Shown in pieces: positions 5,750-20,000 of a stretch of 20,000 nucleotides of DNA. Position 1 is the stretch's first letter. Each line of letters begins with the position of its first letter. The stretch is from Chiloscyllium plagiosum (Eukaryota), in NCBI RefSeq assembly GCF_004010195.1, contig NC_057719.1, forward strand, positions 30,869,894 to 30,889,893, written 5' to 3'. The notes beneath the pieces are model-generated. The model did no database searches, was not told where the DNA came from, and was given only the letters and a program-made list of their open reading frames with translations. Made by a program: the position numbers and the translations under genes.

Positions 5750-6670
5750 GTACAGGAGAAAGTGAGGACTACAGATGCTGGGGAATCAGAATCGAAAAGT
5801 ACAGCAGGTTAGGCAGCATCCGAGTAGCAGGAGAGTCGACATTTCAGGCATAAGAGTTGAAGGGTCCCAAGGCAGAAGATGAGGCATTCTTCCTCCAGTT
5901 GTTGGGTGGTTTGGGTTTGGTGGTGGAGGAAGCCAGGACTTGTATGTCCTTTGGGGAGTGGGAGAAGGAGTTAAGTAGTCAGCCACAGGACAGTAGGGTT
6001 GTTTGGTGCGTGTGTCCCAGAGATGGTTCCTGAAATACTCCGTGGGGTGGCATCCTGCCTCCTCGATGTAGAGATGACCACATGGAGAGCAACGGACACA
6101 GTAGATGAGGTGGATGGATGTGCGGGAAAATCTGTCCTGGATGTGAAAGGATCCTTTGGGGCTTTGGATAGAGGTGAGGGGGAGAGGTGTTGGTGCAGGT
6201 TTTACACAAGGGAAGGTGCCGGCTATGGAGGGTGGGTTGGTGGGGGTATGGACCTAACGAGGGAGTTATGGAGAGACTGGTCTCTGCGGAATGCAGATAG
6301 GGGTGGGGAGGGACATATATTTCAGTCAGATCTCTGTGATCTGAAACAATGGAGGATAATGCGTGGGGTGGAAGGTGAGAATCAGCAGTTTCTATCCATG
6401 TTGTGGTTGGAGGGTTGGGGTTCAATGGTGGAAGTGCGGGAAGTGAAGGAGATGTGCTAAGGGCACTATCGATGAGGGGAAATTGTGGTCCTTGATGTTG
6501 GAGGCCATCTGAGATGTCCTGGCGTGGAATTGCTCCTCCTGGGAGCAGATACGGTGGAGGTGGGGGTATGTGAGGAGGTGCAGTCCTGGTGGCTGTGGGA
6601 GTTGGTAGGTTTGAAATAGATGTCCATGTTGAGTCGGTCGCTGGAGATAGAGATGGAGAGATCCAGGAAA
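5750..6670 (-). mobile_element. Penelope-like element (Poseidon-type), 5'-truncated and internally deleted: RT C-terminus, GIY-YIG endonuclease and terminal repeat
   Basis: Reverse strand gives FLDLSISISSDRLNMDIYFKPTNSHSHQDCTSSH (PLE RT motif DIYxKPTxSH..LxxxSxHP) at about 6570-6670 and HLIYCVRCSPCGHLYIEEAG...YFRNHL (GIY-YIG: IYCIxC..C..YIGET...RF.EH) at about 6020-6110. TSD is tctgcaagttttg (5737-5749) / tctgcaagctttg (6671-6683), 12/13 identical. Confidence 0.9.
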
Positions 6671-6699
6671 TCTGCAAGCTTTGTATCATCAGGAAGGAG

Positions 6700-7523
6700 A
6701 TCACATCTGGAGTGAGACACAGCCTGATTGAATATATGGTTCAGGAGACAGCATGGGAATAGAACTGGTAAACCTTTCTTTTTATTCTCTTTTTTTTAAA
6801 GTTTAAAATTCACTAGGTTATTTGAAAGGTTAATAAGGTAGCCAACTGAGAGACAGTTATTATTAAATCACCTGAGCCATGAATAGGGCCTTAATTGATT
6901 TTGATTACTATTGAAGCTTAACTTGAGAGAGTTATCTCAGCTCATCTTAGTTCTATTTAAGAGGGAGACTGTTGAAAATGCAAAATCAGTAAGCTTCATG
7001 CAGTTAGGAAGGGGAGATCACATTCCAAATGAGTTTGGGGAATTTGGAAGTATGGTGGGAATTCAGTGCAGAGGGGAAGAGGTATTTTTTGATTTTTGGT
7101 TTGTAAGGTTTTTGATAAGTAGGATAACTTGAAGCCCAGGATCAGGGGGCCCAATACAAATGAAAGAGTGACATCACGTGAAAACTGTAAGTTCATTGGC
7201 TGGTAATACTTGCTAATTTGACTATCTATTATGTGATCTTCAGATTGAAGGCAATTCAGACAAATATTTACAGATTACAAACTAAAAGAGCAATTAGGAA
7301 ATATTTAAAAACAAACTAAGAAGTGAGCAAATGAAATAGAGATGCAGGGTCAGGTGAATATGTAGTACCAGCATGATGTGGAAGCTGGTGGACTCCATTG
7401 TGACACATCTGTAGCAAGTGCTGGTTGCTTGAGAAACTCTGGCTCAGAGTTGATGAGCTGGAGTATGAACTTTGAGCACTGACACATCAGGGAGGGGGAC
7501 AATTACCTGGATGCTATCTTTCA
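6700..7523 (+). mobile_element. CR1 LINE 5' region and ORF1 N-terminus (zinc finger / leucine zipper)
   Basis: From ATG 7342 the frameshifted reading is MQGQV...MMWKLVDSIV..HICSKCWLLEKLWLRVDELEYEL*AL.HIREGDNYLDAIF, a CxxC plus heptad repeat typical of CR1 ORF1. The extent of the 5' UTR is a guess. Confidence 0.7.
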
Positions 7524-10954: not shown

Positions 10955-12195
10955 ATCAGAGTCCTAGAGATCTACAGCACAGAAACAGACCCTTTGGTCC
11001 AACTCATCTATGCTAACCAGATATCCTAAATAAATCTAGTCTCATTTGGCCCATATCCCTCTAAATCCTTCCTATTCATGGTCTCATCCAGATGTTTTAT
11101 AAATGTTGTAATTGTACCAGCCTCCATTATCTCTTCTGGTGACTCATTCTATAGACACACCTGTGTGGAAAAAGTTGCCCATTAGGCCCCTTTTAAATCT
11201 TTACCCTGTCACAAACCTATGCCCTCTAGTGTTGGACTCCACCCACCCCCTCACCCCACCCCCCAACCTGGGGAACATACCTTGTCTATTTACCCTATCC
11301 ATGCCCCTCTTGATTTTCTAAACCTCTAAGGTCACTCTTATCCTCCAATGGTCTGGGGAAAACAGCCCCAGCCTATTCAGCCTCTCCCAATAACTCAAAC
11401 CCTCCAACCTTGGCAACATCCTTGTAAATCTTTTCTGAGCCCTTCCAGCTTTTACAACATCCTTCCTAAAGCAGAGAGGCAAAAATTGCACACAGTATTC
11501 CAAAAGTGGCCTAACCAATGTCTTGTACAGCTGCCACATGATCTCCCAATTCCTATACTCAGTGCACTGACCAATAAAGGCAAGCATACTAAATGCCTTC
11601 ACCATCCTATCTACCTGAGACTCCACTTTCAAGGAACTATGAACCTGTACACCAAGGGTTTTGTTCAGCAAGACTTCCCAGGGCCTACCATTAAGTGTAT
11701 AAGTCATGCCCTGATTTGCCTTTCCAAAATGCAGCACCTCACATTTATCTAAATAAAACTGCACCAACCACCCGTTGGCCCATTGACCCATCTGATCAAG
11801 ATCCCATTATGCATGGAGGTAACCTTTTTCACTGTCCACTACACCCCCAATTTTGATGCCATTTGTAAACTTACTAACCAGACCTCCTATGTTCACATCC
11901 AAATCACTTCTATAAAAGACAAAAAGCAGTGGACTCAGCACTGATCATTGTAGCACGCTGCTGGTCACAGGCCTCCAGTCTGAAAAGCAAACCCTCCATT
12001 ACCACCCCTGTCTTCTACCTTTGAGCCAGTTCAGTATCCAAATGGTAGTTCTCCCTTTATTCCATATGATCTAATCTTGCTAACAAGTCTACCACGAGGA
12101 AACTTGTCAAACGCCTTACTGAACTCCATATAGATCACATCTGCCGCTTTTTCCTCATCAATCCTCTTCATTACTACTTCCAAAAACTCAGTTAG
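10955..12195 (-). mobile_element. CR1 (HER1-like) LINE, 5'-truncated: RT to 3' tail
   Basis: Reads LTEFLEVVMKRIDEEKAADVIYMEFSKAFDKFPRGRLVSKIRSYGIKG, then WLVQFYLDKCEVLHFG and LYKTLVRPLLEYCVQF. The 3' tail is ggaccaaagggtctgtttctgtgctgtag on the reverse strand. Confidence 0.95.
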
Positions 12196-12879
12196 TGAGA
12201 TGCTGGTCATGGGAAATTTGCAACATAGCATTGGTGCTTGCAAGTTGAACTTGGGCATCTTAATGATATTGAAGTTAGCAGCAATGATGGTAGAAAAGGC
12301 TAGTGCTGGCTGAAGGCAGACTATTATTTGTGCAAGTTGAAGCACCCTATGTGACTCACAACTTTGATTCATTATCTGACATGTGAGTGTAATGGTCTGT
12401 ACTGATTGCAGTGAGAAGTTGAACAATTGGCACTGATCTGGGATAGGAAAGGTGCTAGAGAGTTGCAAGCACTCCCTGCTTAATGACATTGAGTGGTCAG
12501 TTAGTCATCATGGTATCTTCATCAGTTGCTACACTTGCTGAGCCTGAATGTGAATGGATGATGAAGATATGTCCCTCATTATTCAAGTGCAGCATGTGTC
12601 TCTGTATGGGGAAGTACGATCATCCCTCCTTTGCAGGGTTTTCCATGTGAGATCTAAGAACCTCTATCACTCCTTCGGTTCTCATGTTCAGTCACTTCCA
12701 CTGTGTATTCTGGGCCCTACCACTAGTGTCATGTTCATCATTATGGGTTCCAACCTAAAGGCAAATACAGATACAGGAGGTCCAGGGTTGATGGCCCTCT
12801 CAGGAGCACTGCAGAGCATGAGGAACACTAAGCATAAGCAAAGATCACTCCTAGAGGGCCCTCAATGTGTGCAGTGTGT

Positions 12880-13237: not shown

Positions 13238-13530
13238 AGGGATTTGTCAGTTCTGCAACCACAGATGCACCAGGTCAGTAACTAATGATATCTGTGGCAG
13301 ATCGCAGCAGTCCATTTTATTCCCCTATTACATGGTTGTGCCGTCCAAGCAGCAGGATTTAAAAACATAGCTGGCTTCCCCAAGGTGCAGGGTGCCATAG
13401 ACTGTACACTTATCACTATAAGGGCTGTAATCATAACACTGCAGAATCCTTCAACAGGAAAGGGATCCATTTGATTAATGTTCAGGCCATCAGTGAGTAC
13501 TATTATCACCTCCAAGACATGCATACCTGC
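13238..13530 (+). pseudogene. PIF/Harbinger (HARBI1-like DDE) transposase fossil, segment 2
   Basis: Three frames give GICQFCNHRCTRSVTNDICGRSQQSILFP / AAGFKNIAGFPKVQGAIDCTLITIRA / FNRKGIHLINVQAISE. These match the Harbinger motifs GISQ..HRCI..VT, AGFPxVxGAIDCTH and NRKGxHSxNVQ. The first catalytic Asp codon is at 13400-13402. Confidence 0.9.
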
Positions 13531-15039
13531 TCTTAATGACATTACAAAGGATGATGTGCTAGACATTTTGAAACATGTGAGGATAGATATATTCCCTGGG
13601 CCAGATGGGATACATCCAAGGCTACTACAGGAAATGAGGGAAGAGATTGCTGTGTTTTTGGTGGTGATCTTTGCTTCCTCATTGTCCACTCTGGCAGCTC
13701 CAGATGTTTGGAGGGTGGCAAATGTTATTCCCTCAAAGAAAGGGAATAGGGATAACACTGGACATTACAGTCCAGTCAGTCTTGCATTAGTGGTGGGCAA
13801 ATTATTGGATAGGATTCTGAGAGACAGGACTCATGATTTAGAAAAGAATAGTTTCATTAGAGAGAGTCAGCATGGCTTTGAGGGGCAGGTCATGCCTCCA
13901 AAAGCCTTATTGAACCTTATTGAGGGTAGAGCAGTAGATGTGATGTATATGGATTTTAGCAAGGCATTTGGTAAGATTCCCATGGTAGGCTCATTCAGAA
14001 AGTAAGGAGGCATGGGATACAGGGAAATTTGGTTGTCTGGATACAGAATTGGCTAACCCATAGACAGAGGGTGTTAGTAGATGGAAAGTATTCATCTGTA
14101 TTTGCCTGGAGTTTGGTGACCAATGATGTTCTGCAGGGATCAGTCCTGGGACCTCTGTTCTTTGTGTTTTTTTTCATAACTAACTTTGAGGAAGTGGAAG
14201 GGTTGGTTAGTATGTTTGCCAATGACACGAAGGTTAGTGGAGCGGTAGATAGTGTGGAGGACTGTTGTGGGTTGGAATAGGACATTGAGCTGTGCTGACA
14301 AGTGCCAGATGGAGTTCAACCTGGAAATGTGTGAAGTGATTCATTTTGGAAGGTCGAATTTCAATACATGGTTAAAGACAGGATTCTTAGCAGTGTGGAG
14401 GAACAGAGGGAGCTTGGAGTTCTCATAAGTTGACAGGGTTGTTGGAAGGTGTATGGTATGTTGTCTTTCACTGGTAGGGGATAGAGGTTAAGAGCTACAA
14501 GGTTATGCTGCAGCTCTATAAAGCCCTGGTTAGACCACACTTGGAATATTGTGTTCAGTTCTGGTTGCCTCCTTTATAGAAAGGATGTAGAAGTTTTAGA
14601 GAGGGTATAGAGGAGCTTTACCAAGATGCTGCCTGGACTGGAGGACATGTCTTATGAAAGGTTGAGGGAGCTAGGGCTTTTCTCATTGGAGTGAAGAAGG
14701 ATGAGAGGTGACTTGATAGAGGTGTACAAGATGATGAGGGGCATTGATAGAGTAGATAGCCAAAGTTTTTTTCCCAGGGTGGAAATGGCTATCATGAGGG
14801 TGCATAATTTTAAGGTGATTGGAGAAAGGTTTAAGGGAGATGTCAGAGGTTGGTTCTTTACACAGAGGTGAGTGCATGGAATGCACTGCCTGCTGTGGTG
14901 GTAGTCAGACACATTAGAGGCATTTAAATGACTCAGATAGGCACATGGATGATAGAAAAATGAAGAGTATGTAGGTTAGTTTGATCTTAGAAAGATAAAA
15001 GGTTGGCACAACATTGAGGGCTATGTTTTAAGTTCAATG
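13531..15039 (+). mobile_element. CR1 LINE ORF2 3' half (RT) with 3' tail, inserted into the Harbinger transposase
   Basis: Reads PGPDGIHPRLLQE, WRVANVIP, YSPVSL, VDVMYMDFSKAFGKIP, QGSVLGPLFF and MFANDTK (FADD), with several frameshifts. It ends in a degenerate (tatgttc)n tail at about 15022-15039. Confidence 0.97.
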
Positions 15040-16900: not shown

Positions 16901-17125
16901 TTTGTGACACTGGTTCTTAATTGCTAGCTGCTAAACGCTTGTCTCCTACTGTGGTCCTTTGACTGAAGTCTATTTTCTTTCCTTGCCATGCACCTATTTG
17001 CGAAACATTAATGTGTTGATTCTTGCTCGCCATTACCTTTGTTTAGATCAATGGGATTCTTGAACTCTGACTGGCCAATGTATTAAAAGAATGTTATCAG
17101 TCTTAGTTTGGCTAAATGGTGTGTG

Positions 17126-17215
17126 CCGAAAATGTGTTGCTGGAAAAGCGCAGCAGGTCAGGCAGCATCCAGGGAACAGGAGAATCGACGTTTCGGGCAT
17201 AAGCCCTTCTTCAGG
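17126..17215 (-). mobile_element. 90-bp solo Penelope terminal-repeat insertion with 12-bp TSD
   Basis: Homologous to 5794-5854 of the Penelope element. Flanked by aaatggtgtgtg (17114-17125) and aaacggtgtgtg (17216-17227), 11/12 identical. Confidence 0.88.
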
Positions 17216-17217
17216 AA
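17183..17217 (-). ncRNA. Minimal type-I hammerhead ribozyme motif
   Basis: Reverse strand reads UUC-CUGAAGA-A-GGGC-UUAU-GCCC-GAAA-C-GUC|GAUU: CUGANGA box, 4-bp stem II, GAAA box, loopless palindromic stem III (ACGU) and a GUC cleavage triplet. Stem I has only 2 bp in this copy. Confidence 0.75.
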
Positions 17218-17382
17218 ACGGTGTGTGACCAATTTCTGATTTGGTTTCTTCAGGTGTTAGTCATCTTATCAATAATGCTTTGTTAACTCCTGTTTTTCTA
17301 CCATATCAATCATTTGGAGAAGCAGTGCTATCCTTTATTTTCCAGAGGGATAGATGTAATACAATTTGTGTAAAGTATATCA

Positions 17383-19480: not shown

Positions 19481-19504
19481 AATTCTTTGAATTCACACAA
19501 AGGA

Positions 19505-20000
19505 TATCAGAGCCGATTACTCTCCAGGACCTGATGAACCAGCTCTCGAAATCTCACGAGATGTTGGGGAAACAGATTGAAGAGAAGCTGGCTCCAGTCT
19601 CTCTCATGCTGCAGAAGCATGAGCAGCAGCTGGGAGACCTGGAGAAGAGGACGGATGAGGTGGAGCACAGGGTCACAGTGGTGGAAGCTGATGCCAGTTC
19701 ATTCAAGGATGAGATCCAAGCCCTGAAGACACAGGTTCATAATTTGCGTGACCAAGTGGATGATCATGAAAACAGGGGCAGGAGAAAAAACATTCGGATC
19801 ATCAGTCTGCCTGAGGGTAAGGAAGGTGAGCGGCCTGCGGAATTTGTTGAAGATTGGCTTCCAAAATCCCTTGACTTGAGACTGGCATGAGAGGATTGAA
19901 GATAGAGAGCGCTCACCGGGTCGCAGCACCGAGGTTGGGTCTGGGTCAACACCCTCGTCCTTTCCTGGTGCGGTTCCATCATTACCAGGATAAGGAGAGA
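19505..20000 (+). mobile_element. L1-clade LINE ORF1p (coiled coil plus RRM), one frameshift, running off the right edge
   Basis: A heptad coiled coil precedes DDHENRGRRKNIRIISLPEGKEG. After a 1-nt shift near 19877 it reads GLKIESAHRV...HPRPFLVRFHHYQDKER. These are the L1 ORF1 motifs ENRxRRxNxRIxGxPE, IERAHR and PRPxxVRFxxYxDKE. Confidence 0.93.

What the first reader, a model, noticed from the sequence alone, without database searches (positions are those of the whole stretch)
17114..17227. 90-bp TSD-flanked mini-insertion that is essentially a hammerhead ribozyme cassette
Seen: a 90-bp unit bracketed by a 12-bp direct repeat differing only by a CpG>TpG change. It keeps 5 CpGs in a CpG-poor background, so it is probably recent. 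The minus strand carries a complete hammerhead core (CUGAAGA 17214-17208, stem II GGGC/GCCC, GAAA, GUC with predicted cut between 17187 and 17186). Known: Penelope-like elements carry minimal hammerheads with a palindromic stem III thought to work as dimers. Inference: this is either an extreme 5'-truncated Penelope insertion or a member of a non-autonomous, retrozyme-like family mobilised by Penelope RT/GIY-YIG. The insert stops 1-3 nt 5' of the CUGA box, so reverse transcription may terminate at the ribozyme.
Basis: partly seen in the sequence, partly recalled or inferred. Interest (0 to 1): 0.75.

Follow-up and report, generated by a model that had tools for sequence, protein, structure and literature searches.

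The report
Penelope leader stub ending at promoter
This 90-base insert is one of tens of thousands of short copies of the hammerhead-bearing front end of an ordinary Penelope-type jumping gene, and such copies pile up just before the ribozyme, which likely marks the capped start of the element's RNA rather than a stop caused by the ribozyme or a separate self-spreading family.

Summary
In detail: 12-bp direct repeat (1 mismatch), 5 CpGs, and a minimal hammerhead on the minus strand. The insert is the tail-less short form of a very abundant endonuclease-bearing Penelope-like family, Neptune-type by its Cys linker, with 78,216 exact hits of a 23-mer. It is not a separate retrozyme. Among 103 unselected copies, 3' ends fall in two clusters, the known Penelope 'tail'. 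5' ends pile up 1-6 nt before CUGA (35 of 96), with 1 of 96 in the next 36 nt and 1 of 96 at the predicted cut. An extra G often precedes this wall, and a second hammerhead family has TATAAA 30 nt before its own wall. Best reading: internally primed reverse transcription runs off the capped RNA start. No RNA start or cleavage was seen directly. This copy keeps only 2 bp of stem I, so it is probably catalytically dead. Earlier scan notes reached the same reading on other DNA; I found it in none of my literature searches.

The parts
17114..17125 (.). Target-site duplication, copy at the element's 3' end (priming side); its last base is shared with the element
17125..17217 (-). Whole insert, positions -2 to +90 (C of CUGA = +1, base before = 0): tail-less short form of the Penelope-like leader/pLTR end
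   Evidence: 98.9% over 93 nt to locus L206; 100% over 92 nt to 22 other loci; differs from the majority of 103 copies at one position only
17214..17217 (-). 5' junction: 2 nt microhomology with the TSD, then the base before the core and the first core base; the family's A(-3) is replaced by a target base, so stem I keeps 2 of 4 pairs
17208..17214 (-). CUGAAGA catalytic box
17195..17206 (-). Stem II (4 bp) with 4-nt loop
17187..17194 (-). GAAA box, self-complementary ACGU (stem III only in a dimer) and GUC triplet; predicted cut between 17187 and 17186
   Evidence: cleavage not tested
17183..17186 (-). 3' strand of stem I
17125..17132 (-). Short 3' end cluster (mode +90), the inferred first internal reverse-transcription start site; the ~37-nt tail that leads to the second cluster (mode +126) is absent
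   Evidence: interpretation by analogy with PMC11167929
17216..17227 (.). Target-site duplication, copy at the element's 5' end; retains the CpG

Best explanation
The insert is a short, tail-less copy of the hammerhead-bearing leader of an abundant Penelope-like retrotransposon, likely made when the element's enzyme primed reverse transcription about 90 bases inside its own RNA and ran off the RNA's likely capped 5' end, which is predicted to lie four bases before the CUGA box. Steps: (1) shown: the sequence is the pLTR end of an RT + C-terminal GIY-YIG element and lies upstream of its ORF; (2) inferred: the endonuclease nicks both target strands 12-18 nt apart, giving the TSD; (3) shown as a pattern, mechanism taken from the Anolis element in vitro: copying starts at one of two internal sites (+90 or +126); (4) shown as a pattern, cause inferred: most copies end at or just short of A(-3), often with an extra G read as the copied cap; (5) inferred: the cDNA end joins the second target end by microhomology (this copy), joins a second cDNA made from the other nick (head-to-head copies), or jumps to another template (partial tandems). 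The ribozyme is carried uncut as a passenger, and this copy is probably inactive.
For: Family size: 78,216 exact hits, control 0. Long copies run into GIY-YIG sequence with two cysteines inside the core and a Cys linker; homologues score Pfam GIY-YIG and RVT_1, mostly near or below the curated cut-offs. The ORF follows the tail. 3' ends: 55 of 103 at +83..+97, 48 of 103 at +120..+137, none between. 5' ends of 96 scorable copies: 11 at +15..+43, 27 at +1..+14, 35 at -5..0, 1 at -6..-41, 22 further up; 35 of 58 copies that reach 0 stop within 6 nt against 1 of 23 in the next 36 nt, Fisher p=3e-6. Genome-wide, 53,979 matches from -3 fall to 29,039 from -6. G precedes A(-3) in 8,875 places and in 57 of the first 100 non-C junctions (counted by eye), against 28.5% expected. 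In solo copies all 4 single-base insertions between TSD and A(-3) are G; an extra G marks capping in full-length L1 insertions (PMC11702581, passage). A second hammerhead family (28,883 hits) shows the same wall (10 of 30 at -9..-1) and a TATAAA 30 nt before its initiator-like A; family A has a T-rich hexamer 31 nt before A(-3) in 22 of 23 long copies. 35 of 38 head-to-head insertions pair one long and one short arm, p=7e-8, with TSDs of 12-18 bp, mode 15. In reads and contigs of other samples a loose end at A(-3) is among those listed for two runs (150 reads in X19, 66 contigs in X1).
Against: No RNA 5' end was observed: the RNA reads came from both strands, 93% ran on into unrelated sequence, and no start pile-up appeared. 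G is also raised before other 5' ends (19 of 49, 39%; wall vs control p=0.03, or 0.01 after removing three reference artefacts), so part of the signal may be general C-tailing or microhomology with the inverted arm. 6 of 14 solo copies whose TSD abuts the element take their G from the target. The single-G count is only 4. Family A's TATA-like hexamer is not canonical. The window copy itself has no extra G, so its history is inferred from the family. In D. virilis Penelope the start lies 46 bp before a 75-bp intron whose end meets helix I (PMC2377424, PMC4209133), so the ribozyme is not at the very front there.
Confidence: 0.7

Rival explanations
1. The endonuclease cuts a longer DNA intermediate, or a genomic pLTR, at the ATT just before the ribozyme, so the wall is a DNA resolution site.
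For: The Anolis enzyme cut most often at 5'-ATT-3' near its own ORF-pLTR junction (PMC11167929). The wall here is ATT; family B has AAT near its wall.
Against: It does not explain the extra G or the TATA spacing. The TSD ends listed show no ATT consensus by eye.
Confidence: 0.09
2. Reverse transcriptase stalls or falls off at the folded hammerhead, alone or as a dimer.
For: The wall coincides with the 5' base of stem I, and 27 of 96 ends lie inside the core, +1..+14.
Against: A structure block is expected on the 3' side, near +33 (inference), where few ends lie. The fold is weak (z -0.30; stem I 3 of 4 pairs). Copies that pass -6 almost never stop for 36 nt. In vitro, unprocessed RNA was the main substrate and hammerhead mutants did not change insertion size (PMC11167929).
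Confidence: 0.07
3. The RNA end at A(-3) is real but uncapped, made by a nuclease or exonuclease stalled at the ribozyme-protein complex; the G is enzyme-added tailing.
For: G is also raised at non-wall ends (39%). The wall equals the edge of stem I.
Against: Canonical TATA spacing in family B and an initiator-like sequence at the wall in both families (consensus recalled).
Confidence: 0.08
4. The 90-mer is the monomer of a discrete non-autonomous retrozyme that is cut by its hammerhead, circularised and copied in trans.
For: About 1 in 10 insertions has this solo, short, wall-ended anatomy (8 of 79). Some tandem arrays of about 215-225 nt exist (L138, L141/L142, L143). Animal retrozymes derive from pLTRs (bioRxiv 10.64898/2026.07.22.740005).
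Against: Ends vary at both sides and grade into ORF-bearing copies. 1 of 96 begins at the cut product. No tandem in the window. Tandem junctions fall at or near A(-3) with variable unit length, not at the cut. This copy has 2 stem-I pairs.
Confidence: 0.04

Closest known systems
Endonuclease-positive Penelope-like element insertions (Craig et al. 2021, PMC8557442 and its preprint, passages; Arkhipova et al. 2013, PMC3846280, parts 1-3 of 5)
   Same: 5'-truncated copies, inverted 5' partner, optional 30-40 bp tail at one end, TSD, hammerhead in the pLTR, C-terminal GIY-YIG with CCHH; Cys linker as in Neptune.
   Different: The passages read do not report a fixed 5' wall, an extra G, or the near-strict long/short pairing of arms. 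Copy number here is far higher than in the rotifer.
PAc, Poseidon element of Anolis carolinensis (Frangieh et al. 2024, PMC11167929, parts 1-2 of 4)
   Same: Two internal reverse-transcription starts bounding the tail; both strands nicked and extended; predicted dimer; uncut RNA used; no reads ending at the cut site.
   Different: PAc's ORF starts at stem II; here the long ORF's first ATG lies beyond the tail, so the stub is non-coding apart from short upstream frames. PAc is Poseidon, this has a Neptune-type linker. The RNA start was not mapped in the parts read.
Minimal type I hammerheads of metazoan PLEs (Cervera and De la Pena 2014, PMC4209133, parts 1-2 of 4)
   Same: Core boxes, unpaired base before stem II, short helix I, palindromic helix III; most motifs there are also single and attributed to truncated PLEs.
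   Different: Stem II is 4 bp here, against 7-8 bp in the Schistosoma motifs; this copy has only 2 stem-I pairs. That paper proposes cleavage to circular templates, which the ends here do not support.
Non-LTR retrozymes (Li et al. 2026, bioRxiv 10.64898/2026.07.22.740005, parts 1-3 of 5)
   Same: Non-coding, hammerhead-bearing, pLTR-related, present in Chondrichthyes.
   Different: Defined by tandem units each with a hammerhead; this copy is solo and its family is the autonomous element itself.
Full-length LINE-1 insertions with a cap-derived G, and twin priming (PMC11702581, passages)
   Same: Extra G at a complete 5' end; a second priming event from the other DNA end; 12-18 bp TSDs.
   Different: L1 primes at the poly(A) and its inverted part copies a different stretch; here both arms copy the same leader from internal sites.

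Membership tests
EN+ Penelope-like element | RT followed by C-terminal GIY-YIG with two cysteines inside the core (CCHH) | tested here: met
   In long family copies, not in the stub: L027, L106, L177, L197; homologues hit Pfam GIY-YIG and RVT_1. The fragments alone had no Pfam hit.
EN+ Penelope-like element | pLTR / partial tandem organisation with hammerhead | tested here: met
   The same segment lies after the ORF end and before the ORF start; partial tandems seen.
EN+ Penelope-like element | Optional 30-40 bp tail, inverted 5' partner, TSD | tested here: met
   Two 3' clusters 36 nt apart; 40 of 79 insertions inverted; 29 of 40 with a 12-18 bp TSD.
Neptune clade | CX2-5CxxC linker between RT and EN | tested here: met
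   C-x4-CxxC before the EN in L027, L197, P0002, P0003; criterion from PMC8557442.
Neptune clade | RT phylogeny groups with Neptune | not tested
   No reference set of clade RTs was at hand.
Minimal type I hammerhead | CUGANGA, GAAA, NUH, stem II, palindromic stem III | tested here: met
   a second family keeps the boxes with different stems and the swapped stem III pair.
Minimal type I hammerhead | Helix I of 4-5 bp | tested here: not met
   This copy 2 of 4 pairs; family 3 of 4; sister subfamily 4 of 4.
Minimal type I hammerhead | Self-cleavage, as dimer or with protein | not testable with these tools
   No pile-up of read ends in one RNA run, which cannot decide the point.
Non-LTR retrozyme | Tandem units each with a complete hammerhead | tested here: not met
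   Solo; no tandem repeat in the window. A few family loci are tandem.
Non-LTR retrozyme | Fixed monomer independent of the coding element | tested here: not met
   Ends vary and grade into ORF-bearing copies; 1 of 96 starts at the cut product.
Non-LTR retrozyme | Circular RNA intermediate | tested here: inconclusive
   No back-joint at the cut site among the listed joints; 7 joints were not shown and the library is poly(A).

The most novel reading that the evidence does not exclude
In these shark-type Penelope elements the hammerhead is the first structure of the capped mRNA. A dimeric enzyme copies the leader from two internal sites, one from each target nick, runs off at the cap like a strong-stop DNA, and then joins the target, joins the other cDNA, or jumps to a new template. 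That one cycle would produce solo stubs, head-to-head arms with one tail, and the partial tandems that regenerate the pLTR. The ribozyme would then be a protein-triggered self-decapping switch that removes the first 32 nt, not a processor of monomers or circles.
Probability: 0.35. Interest if true: 0.7.

Novelty: new member of a known kind. Interest (0 to 1): 0.38.

Why it matters
The insert itself is ordinary: roughly one in ten insertions of this family looks like it. The family statistics matter more. How Penelope elements regenerate their pseudo-LTR was called unexplained in PMC2377424, and the hammerhead's role is called unclear in the preprint of PMC8557442. A fixed 5' wall with a cap-like G, two 3' start sites and near-strict long/short pairing give base-level predictions that one CAGE library and one in vitro assay could test. 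It also warns that motif-based retrozyme or ribozyme counts in such genomes will be filled with dead stubs.

Tried and rejected
Rfam at E<=1: no match. Tandem Repeats Finder on the window: none. Folding z-scores near 0 for four versions; cofolding two copies did not give the active dimer and paired a competing palindrome across the cut site in the main family. Pfam on nine ORF fragments: no GIY-YIG hit for the six PLE pieces, settled through homologues. Sequencing runs: no RNA holder listed; raw RNA run X19 showed no start or end pile-up and X20 laid nothing. Empty site: no joint skipping the insert in four contig sets; X16 contigs reach 23-26 nt into the insert from both flanks, short of the 31-nt bridging rule; one X18 contig stops at 17215 with 53 letters unplaced, unresolved; the left flank has no paralogue spanning the site. 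The first search was biased towards full-length hits of the query, so end statistics were taken from the first 100 listed pattern hits instead (103 copies after fetching). A majority sequence of upstream regions was unusable beyond about 200 nt and was dropped in favour of real copies. The link of family B to a Penelope ORF was not traced. Parts of many long copies read N, so no full ORF was read. Literature: nine searches answered; none listed a paper reporting a cap-G or start-site wall for Penelope elements; the library lacks most subscription papers, and supplements (notably Fig. S2 of PMC11167929, which maps insertion and read ends) were not read. PMC11371274 (passages) had nothing relevant; PMC4038843 (passages) supports cap-derived G in general.

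Full report
Observation. A 12-bp direct repeat with one CpG-type mismatch brackets 17126-17215, which holds five CpGs in a window with about 15% of expected CpG. The minus strand carries CUGAAGA, a 4-bp stem II, GAAA, a self-complementary ACGU and GUC. Such a repeat arose in 2 of 20,000 random junction pairs. Rfam found nothing and the fold is no more stable than shuffles, so the ribozyme call rests on motif and family. Numbering below: C of CUGA = +1, the base before = 0.

What it belongs to. A 23-mer from the insert occurs 78,216 times in G000, control 0, and 22 other loci are identical over 92 nt. Long copies continue upstream into a GIY-YIG domain with two cysteines in its core, preceded by a C-x4-CxxC linker and RT remains. 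The closest named proteins are from carpet sharks and a skate, and score Pfam GIY-YIG and RVT_1 near or below the cut-offs. [quoted passage not shown] This is an endonuclease-positive Penelope-like element; the linker is the Neptune criterion of PMC8557442. No RT tree was built. The insert is its pLTR end, which is also its leader.

Ends. I fetched the first 100 listed pattern hits (contig C1, 0-3 Mb), which gave 103 copies in 79 insertions. 3' ends form two clusters, 55 at +83..+97 and 48 at +120..+137. This is the known tail, which PMC11167929 (parts 1-2 of 4) traces to two internal reverse-transcription starts. The window copy uses the short one. For 5' ends, 7 copies were blocked by N. Of 96, 11 end at +15..+43, 27 at +1..+14, 35 at -5..0, 1 at -6..-41 and 22 further upstream. 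The predicted cut product starts at G29; 1 copy starts there, and three scored at +27 match at least one base further up once a private change in the reference copy is allowed for. Genome-wide counts agree: 53,979 matches from -3 and 29,039 from -6.

What makes the wall. RT moves 3' to 5' on the template and would meet the fold near +33; the wall lies after the whole fold is copied (inference). The wall base A(-3) sits in an initiator-like context (consensus recalled). G precedes it in 8,875 places and in 57 of the first 100 non-C junctions (by eye; 28 A, 15 T), against 28.5% expected. I fetched 90 of those 100; the 10 left out were 5 A, 4 G and 1 T. Among 42 solo copies, 28 had a scorable TSD: 14 abutted or overlapped the element, 10 had longer inserts, and 4 had a single extra base, G in all 4. 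An extra G marks capping in full-length L1 insertions (PMC11702581, passage). Against this, G is also raised at other ends (19 of 49; p=0.03), and inverted arms can supply a G. A second, unrelated hammerhead family (28,883 hits; no similarity to the first) has the same anatomy: of 30 loci, 10 end at -9..-1, 8 are long (three of these judged by eye because the ungapped script undercalled them), and 12 lack an intact box. Its long copies carry TATAAA 38-40 nt before CUGA, 30 nt before an initiator-like A in the 38-nt form. Family A has a T-rich hexamer 31 nt before A(-3) in 22 of 23 long copies. The TATA check was prompted by an earlier scan note.

Insertion anatomy. 40 of 79 insertions have a head-to-head partner; 35 of 38 scorable ones pair a long with a short arm (p=7e-8), and 29 of 40 have TSDs of 12-18 bp, mode 15. 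This fits an enzyme that extends both nicks, as shown for the Anolis element. Partial tandems join ORF-leader sequence of variable length to the wall (L179, L181, L183, L186, L194, L200, L206), as expected if a run-off cDNA jumps templates. Solo, short-arm, wall-ended copies like the window's are 8 of 79 insertions.

The ribozyme. Core boxes are kept across families with different stems and a swapped stem III pair, so the motif is under selection in active elements. In this copy the target base replacing A(-3) leaves 2 of 4 stem-I pairs, and it has no tandem partner, so it is probably dead. PMC4209133 (parts 1-2 of 4) found single minimal motifs inactive; PMC11167929 found cleavage only with protein and not needed for insertion.

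RNA and empty site. One raw RNA run gave 2,644 reads on both strands, 93% running into unrelated sequence, with no start or end pile-up; the loose ends repeat the genomic junctions, including A(-3). This neither shows nor excludes a start or a cut. The empty site was not found.

Comparison and novelty. The structural parts are in print (PMC8557442 passages, PMC3846280 parts 1-3 of 5, PMC11167929, PMC4209133). It fails the retrozyme definition of bioRxiv 10.64898/2026.07.22.740005 (parts 1-3 of 5). The start-site wall with a cap-like G was not found in nine searches, supplements unread. [quoted passage not shown] Earlier scan notes reached the same reading on other DNA of this and other genomes; they are unchecked and are not counted as support. 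I had formed the start-site and cap-G reading before consulting them (notes).

Verdict. Real feature; ordinary member of a known class; moderately interesting for what its family's ends say about Penelope replication. Interest 0.38.

Noticed in passing
window 5754-6800 (-): An older, diverged copy of a related Penelope element: RT and GIY-YIG remains, pLTR with a decayed hammerhead (CUGA box lost) and a tail.
   Followed up: partly
L141/L142 (G000:C1 about 26,522,000): Three head-to-tail units of about 224 nt of the sister subfamily, each with an intact hammerhead and perfect 4-bp stem I; the best candidate here for a retrozyme-like, dimer-competent array.
   Followed up: no
L120, L130, L134, L139, L141: Sister subfamily with a different loop II and a complete stem I; useful as a positive control for cleavage.
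   Followed up: partly
L207-L236: Second abundant hammerhead family (28,883 exact hits) with its own tail, inverted arms, wall and canonical TATA box; its ORF was not traced.
   Followed up: partly
L005:-, L085:+: A third hammerhead type with a longer stem II in flanking DNA.
   Followed up: no
L148, L189, L200, L275: Stuttered 5' junctions repeating the first 7-9 nt of the leader, as if copying restarted at the RNA end.
   Followed up: no
L007, L096: Copies whose inverted partner is reduced to the tail alone.
   Followed up: no
window 11318-11806 (-), 12031-12504 (-), 13475-14280 (+): Decayed LINE reverse-transcriptase fragments, CR1/L2-like by recall; weak RVT_1 hit for 13475-14002.
   Followed up: partly
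window 19483-19890 (+): Coiled-coil ORF resembling a LINE-1-type ORF1 by recall; only weak coiled-coil Pfam hits.
   Followed up: no
L163, L164: The same insertion with the same flanks twice, 3.7 kb apart: a local duplication after insertion.
   Followed up: no
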